DNA from: Escherichia phage VEc20
Reading direction: 5' to 3' (one strand)
Sequence record: MN022785.1
DNA length: 64,000 nt
The notes under the pieces are model-generated. The model saw only the letters and a list, made by a program, of their open reading frames with translations. It had not been told where the DNA came from and did no database searches. Each line of letters starts with the position of its first letter. The stretch's first letter is position 1. Below, one piece after another: positions 36,304-37,321 of this stretch. Made by a program: the position numbers and the translations under genes.

Positions 36304-36379
36304 TGGTCGAGGCAGTAGGGATCGAACCTACGACCTAGGACTTAGAAGGTCCTTGCTCTTCCTTCTGAGCTATGCCCCG
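36304..36379 (-). tRNA. tRNA-Arg (anticodon UCU), CCA encoded
   Basis: Hand-folded cloverleaf: 7-bp acceptor with one G-U, T-arm GTAGG/CCTAC, anticodon loop CUUCUAA. Confidence 0.8.
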
Positions 36380-36383
36380 TAAT

Positions 36384-36459
36384 TGGGGTGACCGATGGGA
36401 GTCGAACCCATGACTACGAGAATCACAATCTCGAGTTCTACCAACTGAACTACGGCCAC
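36384..36459 (-). tRNA. tRNA-His (anticodon GUG), discriminator C, CCA encoded
   Basis: Hand-folded: T-arm ATGGG/CCCAT, anticodon stem CGAGA/TCTCG, loop UUGUGAU; G-1 not encoded. Confidence 0.65.
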
Positions 36460-36573
36460 ATTAATACCTACTCCAACAATCAAGATGTCTTCACACGAAA
36501 TTAAGAGAAGAGTGATCAGTTCAACCCCTATAATCGCGTCAAGTAGATATTAATGTGACAGTTGTCACAAATT

Positions 36574-36649
36574 TGGCGGACGTGATAGGATTCGAACCTA
36601 TAACCAATCGCTTAACAGGCGATCGCTCTGCCATTGAGCTACACATCCA
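36574..36649 (-). tRNA. tRNA-Asn (anticodon GUU)
   Basis: Hand-folded: T-arm ATAGG/CCTAT, anticodon stem ATCGC/GCGAT, loop CUGUUAA. Confidence 0.7.
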
Positions 36650-36652
36650 AAT

Positions 36653-36739
36653 TGGTGGGGAGTGGTGGAGTCGAACCACCCGAGTCGCAATGACAATGAA
36701 TTTACAGTCCACACCGCTACATCTACGGGATAACTCCCC
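36653..36739 (-). tRNA. Type II (long variable arm) tRNA, probably tRNA-Tyr (GUA)
   Basis: Perfect 7-bp acceptor, T-arm GGTGG/CCACC, 87 nt; anticodon loop CUGUAAA; D-arm and anticodon stem irregular. Confidence 0.55.
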
Positions 36740-36748
36740 AAATTAATT

Positions 36749-36823
36749 TGGTGGCCCTGGGTGGAATTGAACCACCATCTGGCGATTATGAGTCGCTTGC
36801 TTGAACCTTCCAGCTACAGGGCC
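36749..36823 (-). tRNA. tRNA with CAU anticodon (Met, or Ile if lysidine-modified as in T4)
   Basis: Perfect acceptor stem, T-loop TTCAATT, anticodon loop CUCAUAA. Confidence 0.75.
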
Positions 36824-36824
36824 T

Positions 36825-36900
36825 TGGTGCTGATTGACGGAATCGAACCGCCGACCTTCTCATTACAAGTGAGTTGCTCTACCTACTGAGCTAAATCAGC
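36825..36900 (-). tRNA. tRNA-Thr (anticodon UGU)
   Basis: Perfect acceptor, anticodon loop CUUGUAA. Confidence 0.8.
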
Positions 36901-36905
36901 AAAAC

Positions 36906-36995
36906 TGGCGGAGGCGATAGGATTTGAACCTATGAGTCGCCGGAGCGACTGCCGGTTTTCAAGACCGGTGCATTAAACCACTCTGCCACGCCTCC
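36906..36995 (-). tRNA. tRNA-Ser (anticodon UGA), type II
   Basis: 90 nt, variable-arm hairpin, anticodon loop CUUGAAA. Confidence 0.8.
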
Positions 36996-36997
36996 AG

Positions 36998-37071
36998 TCT
37001 CCGTGGCAGGATTTGAACCTACGACATTCTGCTCCCAAAGCAGACGCTCTACCAAACTGAGCTACACGGAG
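36998..37071 (-). tRNA. tRNA-Pro (anticodon UGG), CCA not encoded
   Basis: Anticodon loop UUUGGGA; 3' end 2 nt from the tRNA-Ser 5' end (Pro-Ser dimeric precursor as in T4). Confidence 0.8.
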
Positions 37072-37081
37072 TAAATTAAAT

Positions 37082-37155
37082 TGGAGCGGATAATGAGAAT
37101 CGAACTCACATCATCAGATTGGAAGTCTGAGGTAATACCATTATACGATATCCGC
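37082..37155 (-). tRNA. tRNA-Gly (anticodon UCC)
   Basis: Anticodon stem TCAGA/TCTGA, loop CUUCCAA. Confidence 0.8.
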
Positions 37156-37160
37156 AAATT

Positions 37161-37247
37161 TGGTGCGAGAAGTGGGACTCGAACCCACAAGGAAATCATT
37201 CCGCAGCATTTTAAGTGCTGTGCCTTTACCAATTTGACCATTCTCGC
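37161..37247 (-). tRNA. tRNA-Leu (anticodon UAA), type II
   Basis: 87 nt, perfect acceptor, anticodon stem CAGCA/TGCTG, loop CUUAAAA. Confidence 0.8.
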
Positions 37248-37248
37248 G

Positions 37249-37321
37249 CTGGGAATAAAGGACTCGAACCTTTGCATCTAGCAGTCAAAGTGCTATGCCT
37301 TACCAACTTGGCTAATTCCCA
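37249..37321 (-). tRNA. tRNA-Gln (anticodon UUG), CCA not encoded
   Basis: Anticodon loop CUUUGAC; 3' end abuts the tRNA-Leu 5' end (Gln-Leu dimeric precursor as in T4). Confidence 0.8.

What the first reader, a model, noticed from the sequence alone, without database searches (positions are those of the whole stretch)
36304..37321. Eleven-tRNA array, three more than T4
Hand folding gives Gln, Leu, Gly, Pro, Ser, Thr, CAU(Met/Ile), Tyr, Asn, His and Arg on the minus strand. T4 as I recall encodes Gln, Leu, Gly, Pro, Ser, Thr, Ile(CAU) and Arg, so Tyr, Asn and His are extra, inserted between the CAU tRNA and Arg. Gln-Leu and Pro-Ser are arranged as abutting dimers lacking encoded CCA, as in T4. 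The type II tRNA called Tyr has an irregular D-arm and a weak anticodon stem, and the His tRNA lacks an encoded G-1.
Basis: partly seen in the sequence, partly recalled or inferred. Interest (0 to 1): 0.5.

Follow-up and report, generated by a model that had tools for sequence, protein, structure and literature searches.

The report
Known T-even phage eleven-tRNA array
This is a real cluster of eleven transfer-RNA genes in a T4-like phage; the same cluster is already annotated in other sequenced phages, so it is ordinary, but it also holds an unannotated structured RNA and a histidine tRNA that lacks its usual identity nucleotide.

Summary
ARAGORN finds the same 11 tRNAs on the minus strand at 36304-37321. 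Rfam's tRNA model passes 10 and misses only Tyr.

The window is a Tequatrovirus, 99.5% identical here to phage ESCO58. In 258 phage records one match covers at least 80% of the region. The array is already known.

"T4 plus three inserts" is too simple:
- The CAU, Tyr, Asn and Arg genes are the T2-type cassette. CAU and Arg are only about 63% identical to T4's.
- T4 and T6 carry the homing endonuclease gene segB at this position. The window has none.
- Leu and Ser do encode CCA. T4's Ser does not.

The odd Tyr gene belongs to a conserved phage tRNA-Tyr family: 15 of 23 helix pairs covary across nine genera. It is one base from T6's tRNA-Tyr, which counteracts Septu defence when overexpressed. 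That one base removes a conserved D-loop G and is seen in no other record.

The His gene lacks G-1 but keeps C73, as do all 13 phage His genes sampled.

The 114-nt Asn-His "spacer" is a conserved, unannotated structured RNA found in 355 records. It resembles T5's stable RNAIII in position and architecture.

The parts
37248..37321 (-). tRNA-Gln (UUG). It is the 5' member of the Gln-Leu dimer. Only one C follows G73 before Leu begins, so CCA is not encoded.
   Evidence: ARAGORN; Rfam 66 bits; sequence; identical to the T4, T2 and T6 genes over their annotated length
37161..37247 (-). tRNA-Leu (UAA), type II, with CCA encoded
   Evidence: (59.3 bits); 87/87 identical to T2, T4 and T6
37082..37155 (-). 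tRNA-Gly (UCC), with CCA encoded
   Evidence: (65.8 bits); 74/74 identical to T2, T4 and T6
36997..37071 (-). tRNA-Pro (UGG). It is the 5' member of the Pro-Ser dimer. A73 is followed by CT and then Ser, so CCA is not encoded. This allele is only 63-64/75 identical to T4 and T2.
   Evidence: (69.7 bits)
36906..36995 (-). tRNA-Ser (UGA), type II. CCA is encoded here, whereas T4 has TAA.
   Evidence: (62.6 bits); 90/90 identical to T2
36825..36900 (-). tRNA-Thr (UGU), with CCA encoded. The top pair of the anticodon stem (27-43) is A x A here, against C-G in T4 and ESCO58.
   Evidence: (72.9 bits)
36749..36823 (-). tRNA with a CAU anticodon, most likely the tRNA-Ile2 type that reads AUA after lysidine modification. 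It is the T2 allele.
   Evidence: 59.9 bits. G1-C72 rules out an initiator. C4-G69 and C5-G68 are present. The nearest E. coli relatives listed are all annotated tRNA-Ile. ATA is 5.6x enriched in the phage and ATG 0.88x. 75/75 identical to T2 and 47/75 to T4 Ile.
36653..36739 (-). tRNA-Tyr (GUA) of a phage-specific non-canonical family. It has a 3-bp D-stem after a 4-nt linker and two G.U pairs in the anticodon stem. It carries a private G-to-T change at 36721 that removes the first G of the conserved D-loop GG.
   Evidence: ARAGORN; below the Rfam tRNA threshold; family covariation in 15 of 23 pairs with 100% of cells paired; 86/87 identical to T6 tRNA-Tyr; no identical copy in 1,264 matching records or in IMG/VR
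36574..36648 (-). tRNA-Asn (GUU), 75/75 identical to the T2 gene. In T2L that gene contains the preferred 27-bp SegB cleavage site.
   Evidence: (74.1 bits); PMC2330249
36460..36573 (-). Asn-His 'spacer'. The core at 36460-36554 is a conserved structured RNA. Its ends form a 12-14 bp helix (36541-36554 with 36460-36473) that runs up to position -1 of tRNA-His. A window-specific small hairpin lies at about 36552-36570.
   Evidence: 355 phage records hold it, nearly all unannotated. P1 is 97.9% paired, with 5 pairs changed on both sides and 0 of 500 shuffles reaching the covariation score. The model scores 110.6 bits on the sense strand; in relatives the antisense strand scores 20 bits or less. 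A divergent Moonvirus copy keeps P1. The fold z-score is -3.6. There is no Rfam or ARAGORN hit and no E. coli match.
36384..36459 (-). tRNA-His (GUG), with C73 and encoded CCA, but T at position -1, so no encoded G-1
   Evidence: (65.1 bits)
36304..36379 (-). tRNA-Arg (UCU), the T2 allele (74/76 identical; only 48/76 to T4 and T6)
   Evidence: (66.1 bits)
35935..36285 (-). 116-aa ORF of unknown function lying between tRNA-Arg and rnaD. T2 has a 351-nt ORF at the same position. T4 has none there.
   Evidence: phrog_3355, unknown function; no Pfam family
35823..35938 (-). rnaD (species 2 stable RNA) homolog, 79% identical to T4 rnaD
   Evidence: blastn against T4 rnaD; T4 annotation
35678..35816 (-). 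rnaC (species 1 stable RNA), 99.3% identical to T4 rnaC
   Evidence: blastn against T4 rnaC; T4 annotation

Best explanation
The feature is the tRNA gene cluster of a T-even (Tequatrovirus) phage, in a mosaic version that is already common in sequence databases.

Its make-up is as follows:
- The 5' part (Gln-Leu-Gly-Pro-Ser-Thr) has the same gene order as T4. Gln, Leu and Gly are essentially identical to T4's. The Pro allele is more divergent.
- The 3' part (CAU-Tyr-Asn ... Arg, then an ORF, rnaD and rnaC) is the T2-type cassette. T4 and T6 interrupt this cassette with the homing endonuclease gene segB.
- A roughly 190-nt module has been added between Asn and Arg. It consists of a structured spacer RNA plus tRNA-His. 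The same module occurs in Karamvirus, Jiaodavirus, Moonvirus and Gelderlandvirus arrays.

Inferred mechanism, from what is established for T4: the genes are co-transcribed and cut out by host enzymes. RNase P makes the 5' ends. Endo- and exonucleases, plus the host CCA-adding enzyme for Gln and Pro, make the 3' ends.

Inferred function:
- The eight T4-type tRNAs read A-ending codons that the AT-rich phage uses 1.6-7.9 times more often than E. coli does. The CAU tRNA is most likely an AUA-reading tRNA-Ile2.
- Tyr and Asn serve amino acids that the phage uses 1.7-1.8 times more than the host does.
- The Tyr gene is one base from T6 tRNA-Tyr. T6 tRNA-Tyr is expressed, and when overexpressed it counteracts the tRNA-Tyr-cleaving Septu defence. 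Replenishing tRNAs lost to host nucleases is therefore a likely second role.
- The role of the G-1-less tRNA-His and of the spacer RNA is not established.
For: Gene calls: ARAGORN finds 11 of 11 and Rfam passes 10 of 11 at 59-74 bits.

Identity of the locus:
- It is 99.5% identical over 1,251 nt to Tequatrovirus ESCO58, which annotates the same 11 tRNAs.
- In 258 records one match covers at least 80% of the region.

Mosaic structure:
- The T4, T6 and T2 maps were compared directly.
- Per-gene identities support the T2-type assignment.
- No SegB homolog is present in the window, and rnaC and rnaD are present.
- The spacer+His module occurs in other genera.

Tyr is a real tRNA: 15 of 23 pairs covary and 100% of cells pair across 11 sequences from 9 genera. 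PGAP annotates the plasmid copies shown as tRNA-Tyr.

Published function: T6 tRNA-Tyr is detected by northern blot and rescues infection from Septu when overexpressed (PMC13096335). T2L, RB1 and RB3 were described with Met/Tyr/Asn/Arg genes (PMC2330249).

Codon usage, phage relative to an E. coli sample:
- AGA x7.9, ATA x5.6, TCA x3.8, GGA x3.7, ACA x3.4, TTA x3.0, CAA x1.6, CCA x1.6.
- At amino-acid level, Tyr x1.82 and Asn x1.67.

The CAU tRNA's nearest host relatives listed are annotated tRNA-Ile.
Against: - His codons are used less by the phage than by the host (x0.68), so codon compensation does not explain tRNA-His.
- tRNA-His lacks G-1, the main identity element for bacterial HisRS (PMC9976931). 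Its charging is therefore doubtful.
- The window's Tyr gene has a private change at a near-universal D-loop G. This copy may be impaired.
- The codon comparison used only 50 kb of E. coli K-12 and ORF-based gene calls. It was not weighted by expression.
- Transcription, processing and aminoacylation were not measured here. They are inferred from work on T4, T6 and T5.
Confidence: 0.85

Rival explanations
1. The three extra tRNAs (Tyr, Asn, His) are kept mainly as counter-defence and not for codon supply. All three have GUN anticodons. They would replace or decoy host tRNAs destroyed by infection-triggered nucleases such as Septu or retron-Eco7 PtuAB (which cut the tRNA-Tyr variable loop) and colicin-E5-like anticodon nucleases.
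For: - T6 tRNA-Tyr (86/87 identical) overcomes Septu when overexpressed or amplified. T4, which lacks it, cannot escape (PMC13096335).
- The general hypothesis, including colicin E5 targets in coliphages, has been published (PMC10264068).
- His codon demand is lower in the phage than in the host, so compensation fails for His.
- The Tyr family has spread horizontally through at least nine phage genera and onto plasmids in 269 E. coli genomes.
- A G-1-less tRNA-His could still act as a nuclease decoy.
Against: - Septu cleaves T6 tRNA-Tyr as well as the host tRNA, and wild-type expression is not enough for escape.
- The His anticodon loop is identical to the host's. From my own recollection of the host sequences, the Tyr and Asn loops are too. 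So there is no sign of the loop mutations that are predicted to confer resistance.
- Tyr and Asn are among the amino acids most over-used by the phage relative to the host, so compensation is a sufficient explanation for those two.
- No nuclease that targets E. coli tRNA-His or tRNA-Asn during phage infection was identified here.
Confidence: 0.4
2. One or both of the odd genes are non-functional passengers in this particular phage. Tyr has lost a D-loop G, and His lacks G-1. On this view the working array is effectively nine or ten tRNAs.
For: - The G-to-T change at 36721 removes one G of the D-loop GG that all ten relatives compared keep. It is found in none of 1,264 matching records nor in IMG/VR.
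- Rfam's tRNA model rejects the Tyr gene.
- Some pipelines call homologs pseudo or undetermined.
- Bacterial HisRS depends on G-1 (PMC9976931).
Against: - Both gene families are strongly conserved, with compensatory changes across many genera. That argues for selection on function.
- The absence of G-1 is a family trait, seen in 13 of 13 genes, and not a lesion in this phage.
- The T5 record states that its G-1-less tRNA-His becomes an effective amber suppressor when given an amber anticodon. So that tRNA is matured and charged in vivo.
- A single D-loop substitution does not necessarily inactivate a tRNA. It could also be a sequencing error.
Confidence: 0.2
3. The composition of the array mainly reflects selfish DNA dynamics and not selection on each tRNA. 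tRNA genes are targets and recombination substrates for homing endonucleases such as SegB, so cassettes are swapped among co-infecting phages regardless of benefit.
For: - SegB cuts within T2L tRNA genes, prefers the Asn gene, and drives replacement of a roughly 1,250-bp region holding the Met-Tyr-Asn-Arg genes (PMC2330249).
- segB is statistically associated with tRNA genes (PMC13096335).
- The window's Asn gene is identical to T2's.
- T2's Thr gene is truncated by an inserted ORF.
- The module junctions lie at the repeated CCA-AAT linkers.
- Arrays differ between T2, T4, T6 and this window in cassette-like blocks.
Against: - This explains how the arrays are shuffled. It does not explain why each tRNA family keeps covarying helices and identity elements over wide phylogenetic distances.
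- The anticodon set matches phage codon demand non-randomly.
Confidence: 0.25

Closest known systems
T2 / T2L (and RB1, RB3) tRNA gene region (Brok-Volchanskaya et al. 2008, PMC2330249; T2 record AP018813)
   Same: - There is no segB.
- The CAU-Tyr-Asn-Arg cassette is the same, with genes 75/75, 85/87, 75/75 and 74/76 identical.
- Ser has an encoded CCA.
- An ORF of about 350 nt follows Arg.
   Different: - The window keeps an intact tRNA-Thr. T2's is truncated after 13 nt by a 402-nt ORF.
- The window has a different Pro allele (64/75).
- The window carries the extra spacer+His module between Asn and Arg.
T4 tRNA gene cluster (NC_000866: Gln Leu Gly Pro Ser Thr Ile segB Arg rnaD rnaC)
   Same: - The genomic position is the same, between the trna.2-4/ipI side and the e.x genes.
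- The leader sequence is identical, as are Gln, Leu and Gly.
- The Gln-Leu and Pro-Ser dimer layout is the same.
- rnaC is 99% identical and rnaD 79%.
   Different: - T4 has segB. It has no Tyr, Asn, His or spacer RNA.
- T4's Ile(CAU) and Arg are different alleles (47/75 and 48/76).
- T4's Ser and Ile lack encoded CCA.
- In T4, rnaD follows Arg directly, with no ORF between them.
T6 tRNA-Tyr, the anti-Septu tRNA (Chihara et al. 2026, PMC13096335)
   Same: The gene is 86/87 identical, with the same variable arm and anticodon stem-loop. It sits after the CAU tRNA in both phages.
   Different: - The window's copy has T in place of the first D-loop G.
- T6 has segB next to the gene, which enables its amplification. 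The window has no segB.
- T6 lacks Pro, Ser, Asn and His.
T5 RNAIII (106-nt 'stable RNA with unknown functions', NC_005859)
   Same: - It lies immediately 5' of, and abuts, a tRNA-His that has T at -1 and C73.
- It is about 100 nt long.
- Its 5' and 3' ends form a 14-bp helix that includes the nucleotide just before tRNA-His, and the helix encloses two or three hairpins.
- The fold z-scores are similar, -3.3 and -3.6.
   Different: - No sequence similarity is detectable. The covariance model of the window's family gives no hit in 30 kb of T5 at E up to 10.
- T5 RNAIII matches only T5-like phages.
- The window's family has never been shown to accumulate as an RNA.

Membership tests
Canonical tRNA (Rfam RF00005) | Score at or above the gathering threshold of 29 bits | tested here: met
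   Ten genes score 59-74 bits. The exception is Tyr, covered in the next row.
Canonical tRNA (Rfam RF00005), Tyr gene only | Score at or above the gathering threshold, with a canonical D-arm (2-nt 8-9 linker, G18 G19) | tested here: not met
   There is no RF00005 hit. The only hit is tRNA-Sec at 27.8 bits against 47. The linker is 4 nt, the D-stem is 3 bp, and the D-loop reads TAGATGTAG with a single G.
Phage tRNA-Tyr family (T5 / T6 type) | Cloverleaf helices and the variable-arm stem maintained by compensatory changes, plus bacterial Tyr features (G1-C72, A73, GUA anticodon, long variable arm) | tested here: met
   15 of 23 pairs show compensatory change and 100% of cells pair across 11 sequences from 9 genera. 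G1-C72, A73, GUA and a 15-nt variable region are present.
Phage tRNA-Tyr family (T5 / T6 type) | Expression and rescue from tRNA-Tyr-cleaving defences | not testable with these tools
   This was shown for T6's 86/87-identical gene (PMC13096335), not for this allele.
T-even tRNA gene cluster | Conserved genomic position and the order Gln-Leu-Gly-Pro-Ser-Thr-CAU...Arg, with rnaD and rnaC downstream | tested here: met
   Synteny with T4, T2 and ESCO58; rnaC at 99.3% and rnaD at 78.8% identity
T4/T6-type cluster with segB | A GIY-YIG homing endonuclease gene, segB, inside the cluster | tested here: not met
   tblastn of T4 SegB against the whole window gives no hit.
Bacterial tRNA-His identity set | Genome-encoded G-1 opposite C73 | tested here: not met
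   Position -1 is T and position 73 is C. E. coli hisR has G at -1. The same holds in 13 of 13 phage His genes.
Bacterial tRNA-His identity set | GUG anticodon and C73 | tested here: met
tRNA-Ile2 (lysidine, AUA-reading) | CAU anticodon, elongator-type G1-C72, C4-G69 and C5-G68, and resemblance to host ileX/ileY rather than to Met tRNAs | tested here: met
   Sequence. The nearest E. coli relatives listed are all annotated tRNA-Ile, at 78-82% identity. That C4-G69 and C5-G68 are the TilS determinants is from my own knowledge of the field.
tRNA-Ile2 (lysidine, AUA-reading) | C34 actually modified to lysidine, and the tRNA charged with Ile | not testable with these tools
   This needs mass spectrometry or an aminoacylation assay. 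ARAGORN and several database records call the gene Met.
T5 RNAIII-like stable RNA | About 100 nt, abutting the 5' end of tRNA-His, with its termini paired in a long helix | tested here: met
T5 RNAIII-like stable RNA | Sequence or profile homology to T5 RNAIII | tested here: not met
   Model R1 gives no hit in T5. An RNAIII blast finds only T5-like phages.
T5 RNAIII-like stable RNA | Accumulates as a stable RNA in infected cells | not testable with these tools
   No expression data were available.

The most novel reading that the evidence does not exclude
The Asn-His 'spacer' (36460-36573) may be a previously unannotated family of phage small RNAs. It occurs in 355 genomes from at least six lineages of large enterobacterial phages. 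It is a functional counterpart of T5 RNAIII, though not a detectable sequence homolog.

Its terminal helix sequesters the leader of tRNA-His right up to position -1. In most lineages it travels together with a tRNA-His that universally lacks the G-1 identity nucleotide.

The most novel reading is that this RNA and the G-1-less tRNA-His form one functional unit. The RNA might control the 5' maturation, stability or use of a tRNA-His that is handled differently from the host's. If so, phage tRNA-His genes in general would work by non-canonical identity rules.
Probability: 0.25. Interest if true: 0.55.

Novelty: already known. Interest (0 to 1): 0.22.

Why it matters
The eleven-tRNA array itself adds nothing new. 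The same array is annotated in other sequenced Tequatrovirus genomes. Its T2-type half was described in 2008, and the function of its tRNA-Tyr against the Septu defence was described in 2026.

Three side results could matter:
1. A structured RNA of about 95 nt inside the array is conserved in 355 phage genomes but almost never annotated. Like T5 RNAIII and T4 species 1 and 2 RNAs, it belongs to a class of phage stable RNAs that database records still annotate as being of unknown function.
2. Every phage tRNA-His gene sampled lacks G-1, the main identity element for bacterial HisRS. The sample is 13 genes from 8 genera and includes T5 and a mycobacteriophage. This raises a directly testable question about how, or whether, these tRNAs are charged.
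3. This phage's tRNA-Tyr carries a private change at a near-universal position. That is relevant if the phage is considered for use against hosts that carry tRNA-Tyr-cleaving defences.

Tried and rejected
- **Spacer as a decayed or unrecognised tRNA.** I considered this because Klebsiella phage records list 'tRNA-Gln' under the match. It is rejected. ARAGORN and Rfam (E up to 10) find nothing there, and the annotated Gln gene only touches the edge of the match.
- **Spacer as a sigma-70 promoter or terminator.** The consensus scan shows nothing convincing on the tRNA strand, and promoter-like sites are not above the shuffled expectation. A 1-nt deletion in W70 and STP4-a and a replaced central segment in STP4-a and L024 fall within the candidate promoter region.
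- **Spacer derived from a host tRNA operon.** There is no match in 5,426 E. coli genomes.
- **Spacer as a DNA-level inverted repeat.** This is disfavoured. The helix contains many T.G wobbles that pair only on the tRNA-sense strand, and the covariance model scores 90-113 bits on the sense strand against 20 bits or less on the antisense strand.
- **Inner helices P2 and P3 of the spacer.** Their sequence is conserved but covariation does not support them. P2 is broken in Jiaodavirus-type copies. Only P1 is claimed.
- **Sequence homology between the spacer and T5 RNAIII.** None was found.
- **My own early assumption that the window lacks rnaC and rnaD.** This was wrong. BLAST finds both downstream of a 116-aa ORF.
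- **IMG/VR pattern scan for more divergent spacer copies.** It returned only 5 loci, and only one sequence variant was new to the alignment.
- **Literature searches.** Searches for a G-1-less phage tRNA-His and for T4 or T5 stable RNAs found nothing relevant in the searchable library. This does not prove novelty, because the older T4 and T5 papers are not held there.
- **Flanking ORFs.** Pfam and PHROGs gave no function.
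Full report
**1. Observation**

ARAGORN on the whole window finds 11 tRNA genes, all on the minus strand between 36304 and 37321.

Rfam's general tRNA model passes ten of them at 59-74 bits against a gathering score of 29. The Tyr gene does not reach that threshold. Its only hit is a sub-threshold tRNA-Sec match of 27.8 bits against 47. So the array is real and far beyond chance, with one member that standard models dislike.

**2. What the window is**

The region is 99.5% identical over 1,251 nt to Escherichia phage ESCO58, a Tequatrovirus that annotates the same eleven tRNAs. 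Of the 986 phage records that match, 258 have one match covering at least 80% of the region. This array is therefore already in the databases many times. Different records label the Tyr homolog tRNA-Tyr, tRNA-OTHER, tRNA-Val or tRNA-Pseudo-GTA.

**3. Comparison with T4, T6 and T2**

The gene orders are:
- T4: Gln-Leu-Gly-Pro-Ser-Thr-Ile(CAU)-segB-Arg-rnaD-rnaC.
- T6: Gln-Leu-Gly-Thr-Met(CAU)-Tyr-segB-Arg.
- T2: Gln-Leu-Gly-Pro-Ser-[truncated Thr + ORF]-Met(CAU)-Tyr-Asn-Arg-ORF.

Gene-by-gene identities show that the window's CAU, Asn and Arg genes are the T2 alleles, at 75/75, 75/75 and 74/76. They are only 47/75 (CAU) and 48/76 (Arg) identical to T4's genes.

The statement "T4 plus three inserted tRNAs" is therefore numerically right but structurally wrong. 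From the CAU tRNA onward the window carries the T2-type cassette, which T4 and T6 interrupt with the homing endonuclease gene segB. The window has no SegB homolog.

This layout has been published. Brok-Volchanskaya et al. (2008) described T2L, RB1 and RB3 as lacking segB. They showed that T2L carries Met, Tyr, Asn and Arg genes. They also showed that SegB's preferred 27-bp site lies inside the T2L Asn gene (PMC2330249). The window's Asn gene is identical to T2's, so this array is predicted to be a SegB target. That is an inference.

Relative to T2, only about 190 nt are extra: the 114-nt spacer plus tRNA-His. They are inserted between CCAAAT and TACG, at the repeated CCA-AAT linkers.

I first assumed that T4's stable RNAs were missing. 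That was wrong. rnaC lies at 35678-35816 (99.3% identical to T4's) and rnaD at about 35823-35938 (79%). They are separated from tRNA-Arg by a 116-aa ORF of unknown function. The RNA gene cluster therefore spans 35678-37321.

**4. CCA ends**

Gln is followed by a single C and then Leu. Pro is followed by CT and then Ser. These two genes lack an encoded CCA, as they do in T4. Leu, Gly, Ser, Thr, CAU, Tyr, Asn, His and Arg all encode CCA. T4's Ser has TAA, and T4's Ile has no CCA.

**5. The Tyr gene**

Blast finds relatives at 77-98.9% identity in 1,264 phage records. I parsed 11 sequences structurally. They come from nine genera: Tequatrovirus, Vequintavirus, Karamvirus, Jiaodavirus, Phapecoctavirus, Tequintavirus, Felixounavirus, Epseptimavirus and Sugarlandvirus.

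All 23 helix pairs pair in every sequence, and 15 of them show compensatory changes. These pairs cover the acceptor, D, anticodon, variable-arm and T helices. This is a real tRNA family.

Its D-arm is non-canonical throughout the family. It has a 3-bp CYG/CRG stem preceded by a 4-5-nt linker where canonical tRNAs have 2 nt. That explains the Rfam miss and the varied annotations. G1-C72, A73, the GUA anticodon and a long variable arm are all present. From my own knowledge, these are the features that bacterial TyrRS uses.

The family is absent from E. coli chromosomes. It occurs on plasmids in 269 of 5,426 E. coli genomes, for example in an Asn-Tyr-Thr-Ser array on a 109-kb plasmid.

The window's gene is 86/87 identical to T6 tRNA-Tyr. 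T6 tRNA-Tyr is detected by northern blot and rescues T6 from the Septu defence when overexpressed or amplified. Septu cleaves the tRNA-Tyr variable loop (PMC13096335).

The single difference is at 36721. It replaces the first G of the D-loop GG, which all ten relatives compared keep. No record among the 1,264, and no IMG/VR contig, has this variant. It may be a private mutation that weakens the tRNA elbow, or it may be a sequencing error.

**6. The CAU tRNA**

It has G1-C72, so it is not an initiator. It has C4-G69 and C5-G68, and an anticodon stem-loop like that of E. coli ileX (the TilS determinants are from my own knowledge). Its closest relatives listed in E. coli genomes are all annotated tRNA-Ile. 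ATA codons are 5.6-fold enriched in the phage, while ATG is not. It is most likely an AUA-reading tRNA-Ile2. ARAGORN and several database records call it Met.

**7. tRNA-His**

The gene reads ...ttaat|GTGGCCG...CGGTCAC-C-CCA. Position -1 is T and position 73 is C. E. coli hisR reads ...tagtg|GTGGCTA...TAGCCAC-C-CCA, with an encoded G-1. The two anticodon loops are identical.

The same T at -1 with C73 is found in all 13 phage tRNA-His genes I examined. They come from Tequatrovirus, Jiaodavirus, Karamvirus, Moonvirus, Kanagawavirus, Chrysonvirus, a mycobacteriophage (Bixzunavirus) and T5.

Bacterial histidine identity rests on G-1 and C73. The known bacterial exceptions have co-varied to A73 together with an altered HisRS (PMC9976931). 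So this is a conserved anomaly, not a defect of this phage.

The T5 record notes that its tRNA-His becomes an effective amber suppressor when given an amber anticodon. That tRNA is therefore matured and charged in vivo. I found no paper that discusses the missing G-1. Most of my sample was found by similarity, so it may represent one horizontally spread lineage.

**8. The Asn-His spacer**

This gap is not junk. A core of about 95 nt is present in 355 phage records and is almost never annotated. It occurs in Tequatrovirus, Karamvirus, Jiaodavirus, Gelderlandvirus and Moonvirus, immediately upstream of tRNA-His. It also occurs in two Vequintavirinae phages, where it sits between tRNA-Gly and tRNA-Gln.

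Its 5' and 3' ends form a helix, P1. Across 8 distinct sequences, 12 pairs are 97.9% paired and 5 pairs have changed on both sides. No shuffle out of 500 reaches the observed covariation score. Slid registers drop to 36-53% paired.

The helix contains many U.G wobbles that pair only on the tRNA-sense strand. The covariance model scores 90-113 bits on the sense strand against 20 bits or less on the antisense strand. This points to an RNA, not a DNA repeat. The divergent Moonvirus copy keeps P1 through further compensations, although its interior differs.

In the His-linked copies, P1 can extend to 14 bp and includes the U at position -1 of tRNA-His. The interior helices are not supported by covariation. 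The element has no Rfam match, is not a tRNA, has no convincing promoter or terminator, and is absent from E. coli.

The closest precedent is T5 RNAIII, which the T5 record annotates as a 106-nt "stable RNA with unknown functions". It also abuts the 5' end of a G-1-less tRNA-His. It also closes with a 14-bp terminal helix around two or three hairpins. The two show no detectable sequence homology. I read the spacer as a co-transcribed small RNA whose 3' end would be made by RNase P cleavage at tRNA-His. It works like T5 RNAIII in position and architecture. Membership in that family is not shown, and the function is unknown.

**9.

I used 66 long ORFs from the window (16,338 codons) and 41 from a 50-kb stretch of E. 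coli K-12 (14,727 codons).

The codons read by the eight T4-type tRNAs are all enriched in the phage:
- AGA x7.9
- ATA x5.6
- TCA x3.8
- GGA x3.7
- ACA x3.4
- TTA x3.0
- CAA x1.6
- CCA x1.6

At amino-acid level, Tyr (x1.82) and Asn (x1.67) are the two most over-used amino acids of the 17 compared. His is under-used (x0.68).

Codon or amino-acid compensation therefore fits ten of the eleven tRNAs and fails for His. The host sample is small and was not weighted by expression.

**10. Verdict**

The array is an already known mosaic: a 5' half in T4 gene order, a T2-type 3' cassette, and a spacer+His module shared with other Tevenvirinae genera.

The most likely functions are codon supply for an AT-rich genome and, for Tyr, replenishment of a tRNA targeted by host defence nucleases. 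These are inferences from published work on T4, T2L and T6. Nothing was measured on this phage.

- the RNAIII-like spacer RNA;
- the general absence of G-1 in phage tRNA-His genes;
- the private D-loop change in tRNA-Tyr.

Noticed in passing
window 36460-36573 (minus strand): The Asn-His 'spacer' is a conserved, unannotated structured RNA found in 355 phage records. It has a covarying 12-14 bp terminal helix that runs up to position -1 of tRNA-His. It resembles T5 RNAIII in position and architecture but not in sequence.
   Followed up: partly
window 36459/36460; loci L001, L003, L005, L007, L009-L012, L030-L033: All 13 phage tRNA-His genes sampled have T at -1 and C73, so none encodes G-1. They come from 8 genera and include T5, an Aeromonas phage and a mycobacteriophage. 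E. coli hisR (L028) encodes G-1.
   Followed up: partly
window 36721: A private G-to-T change (read on the tRNA strand) removes the first G of the D-loop GG of tRNA-Tyr. The variant is absent from all 1,264 matching phage records and from IMG/VR. It could be a real mutation or a sequencing error.
   Followed up: partly
window 35678-35938 (minus strand): T4-type stable RNAs rnaC (99.3% identical) and rnaD (79%) lie downstream of the array. A 116-aa ORF of unknown function (35935-36285) separates them from tRNA-Arg.
   Followed up: partly
window 36858, 36874 (tRNA-Thr): The top pair of the anticodon stem (27-43) of tRNA-Thr is A x A in the window. T4 and ESCO58 have C-G there. Both sides have changed to a non-pair, and a third difference lies in the variable loop (36856).
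   Followed up: no
window 36997-37071 (tRNA-Pro): The Pro allele is only 63-64/75 identical to the T4 and T2 Pro genes, although the flanking Gly and Ser genes are nearly identical. This suggests gene-sized allele replacement inside the array.
   Followed up: no
L029 (E. coli plasmid pEC881_2, 109 kb) 2421-3247; The phage-type tRNA-Tyr is absent from E. coli chromosomes. It is present on plasmids in 269 of 5,426 genomes, here in an Asn-Tyr-Thr-Ser array. Their size of about 109 kb suggests they may be phage-plasmids. That was not tested.
   Followed up: no
L026 (T2) about 8100-8232: T2's tRNA-Thr is truncated after its first 13 nt by an insertion that carries a 402-nt ORF. The ORF is mis-annotated as 'tail sheath monomer'.
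   Followed up: no
window 18072-18132, 20012-20075, 20665-20696, 7169-7196, 38644-38673, 38972-39004: A 30-60-nt stretch from the T4 intergenic region downstream of rnaC matches several dispersed places in the window at 78-86% identity. It may be a repeated promoter-like or intergenic element.
   Followed up: no
window about 36552-36570 (minus strand): A small hairpin (GTGAC-AACT-GTCAC) lies between tRNA-Asn and the conserved spacer core. It is not seen in the other genera compared.
   Followed up: no
L003, L005, L007 (Jiaodavirus and Karamvirus arrays): Other long inter-tRNA gaps in these arrays were not examined. Examples are Asn-Asp at about 230 nt, Asp-Met at about 130-160 nt and His-Ser at about 96 nt. 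They might hold further structured RNAs.
   Followed up: no
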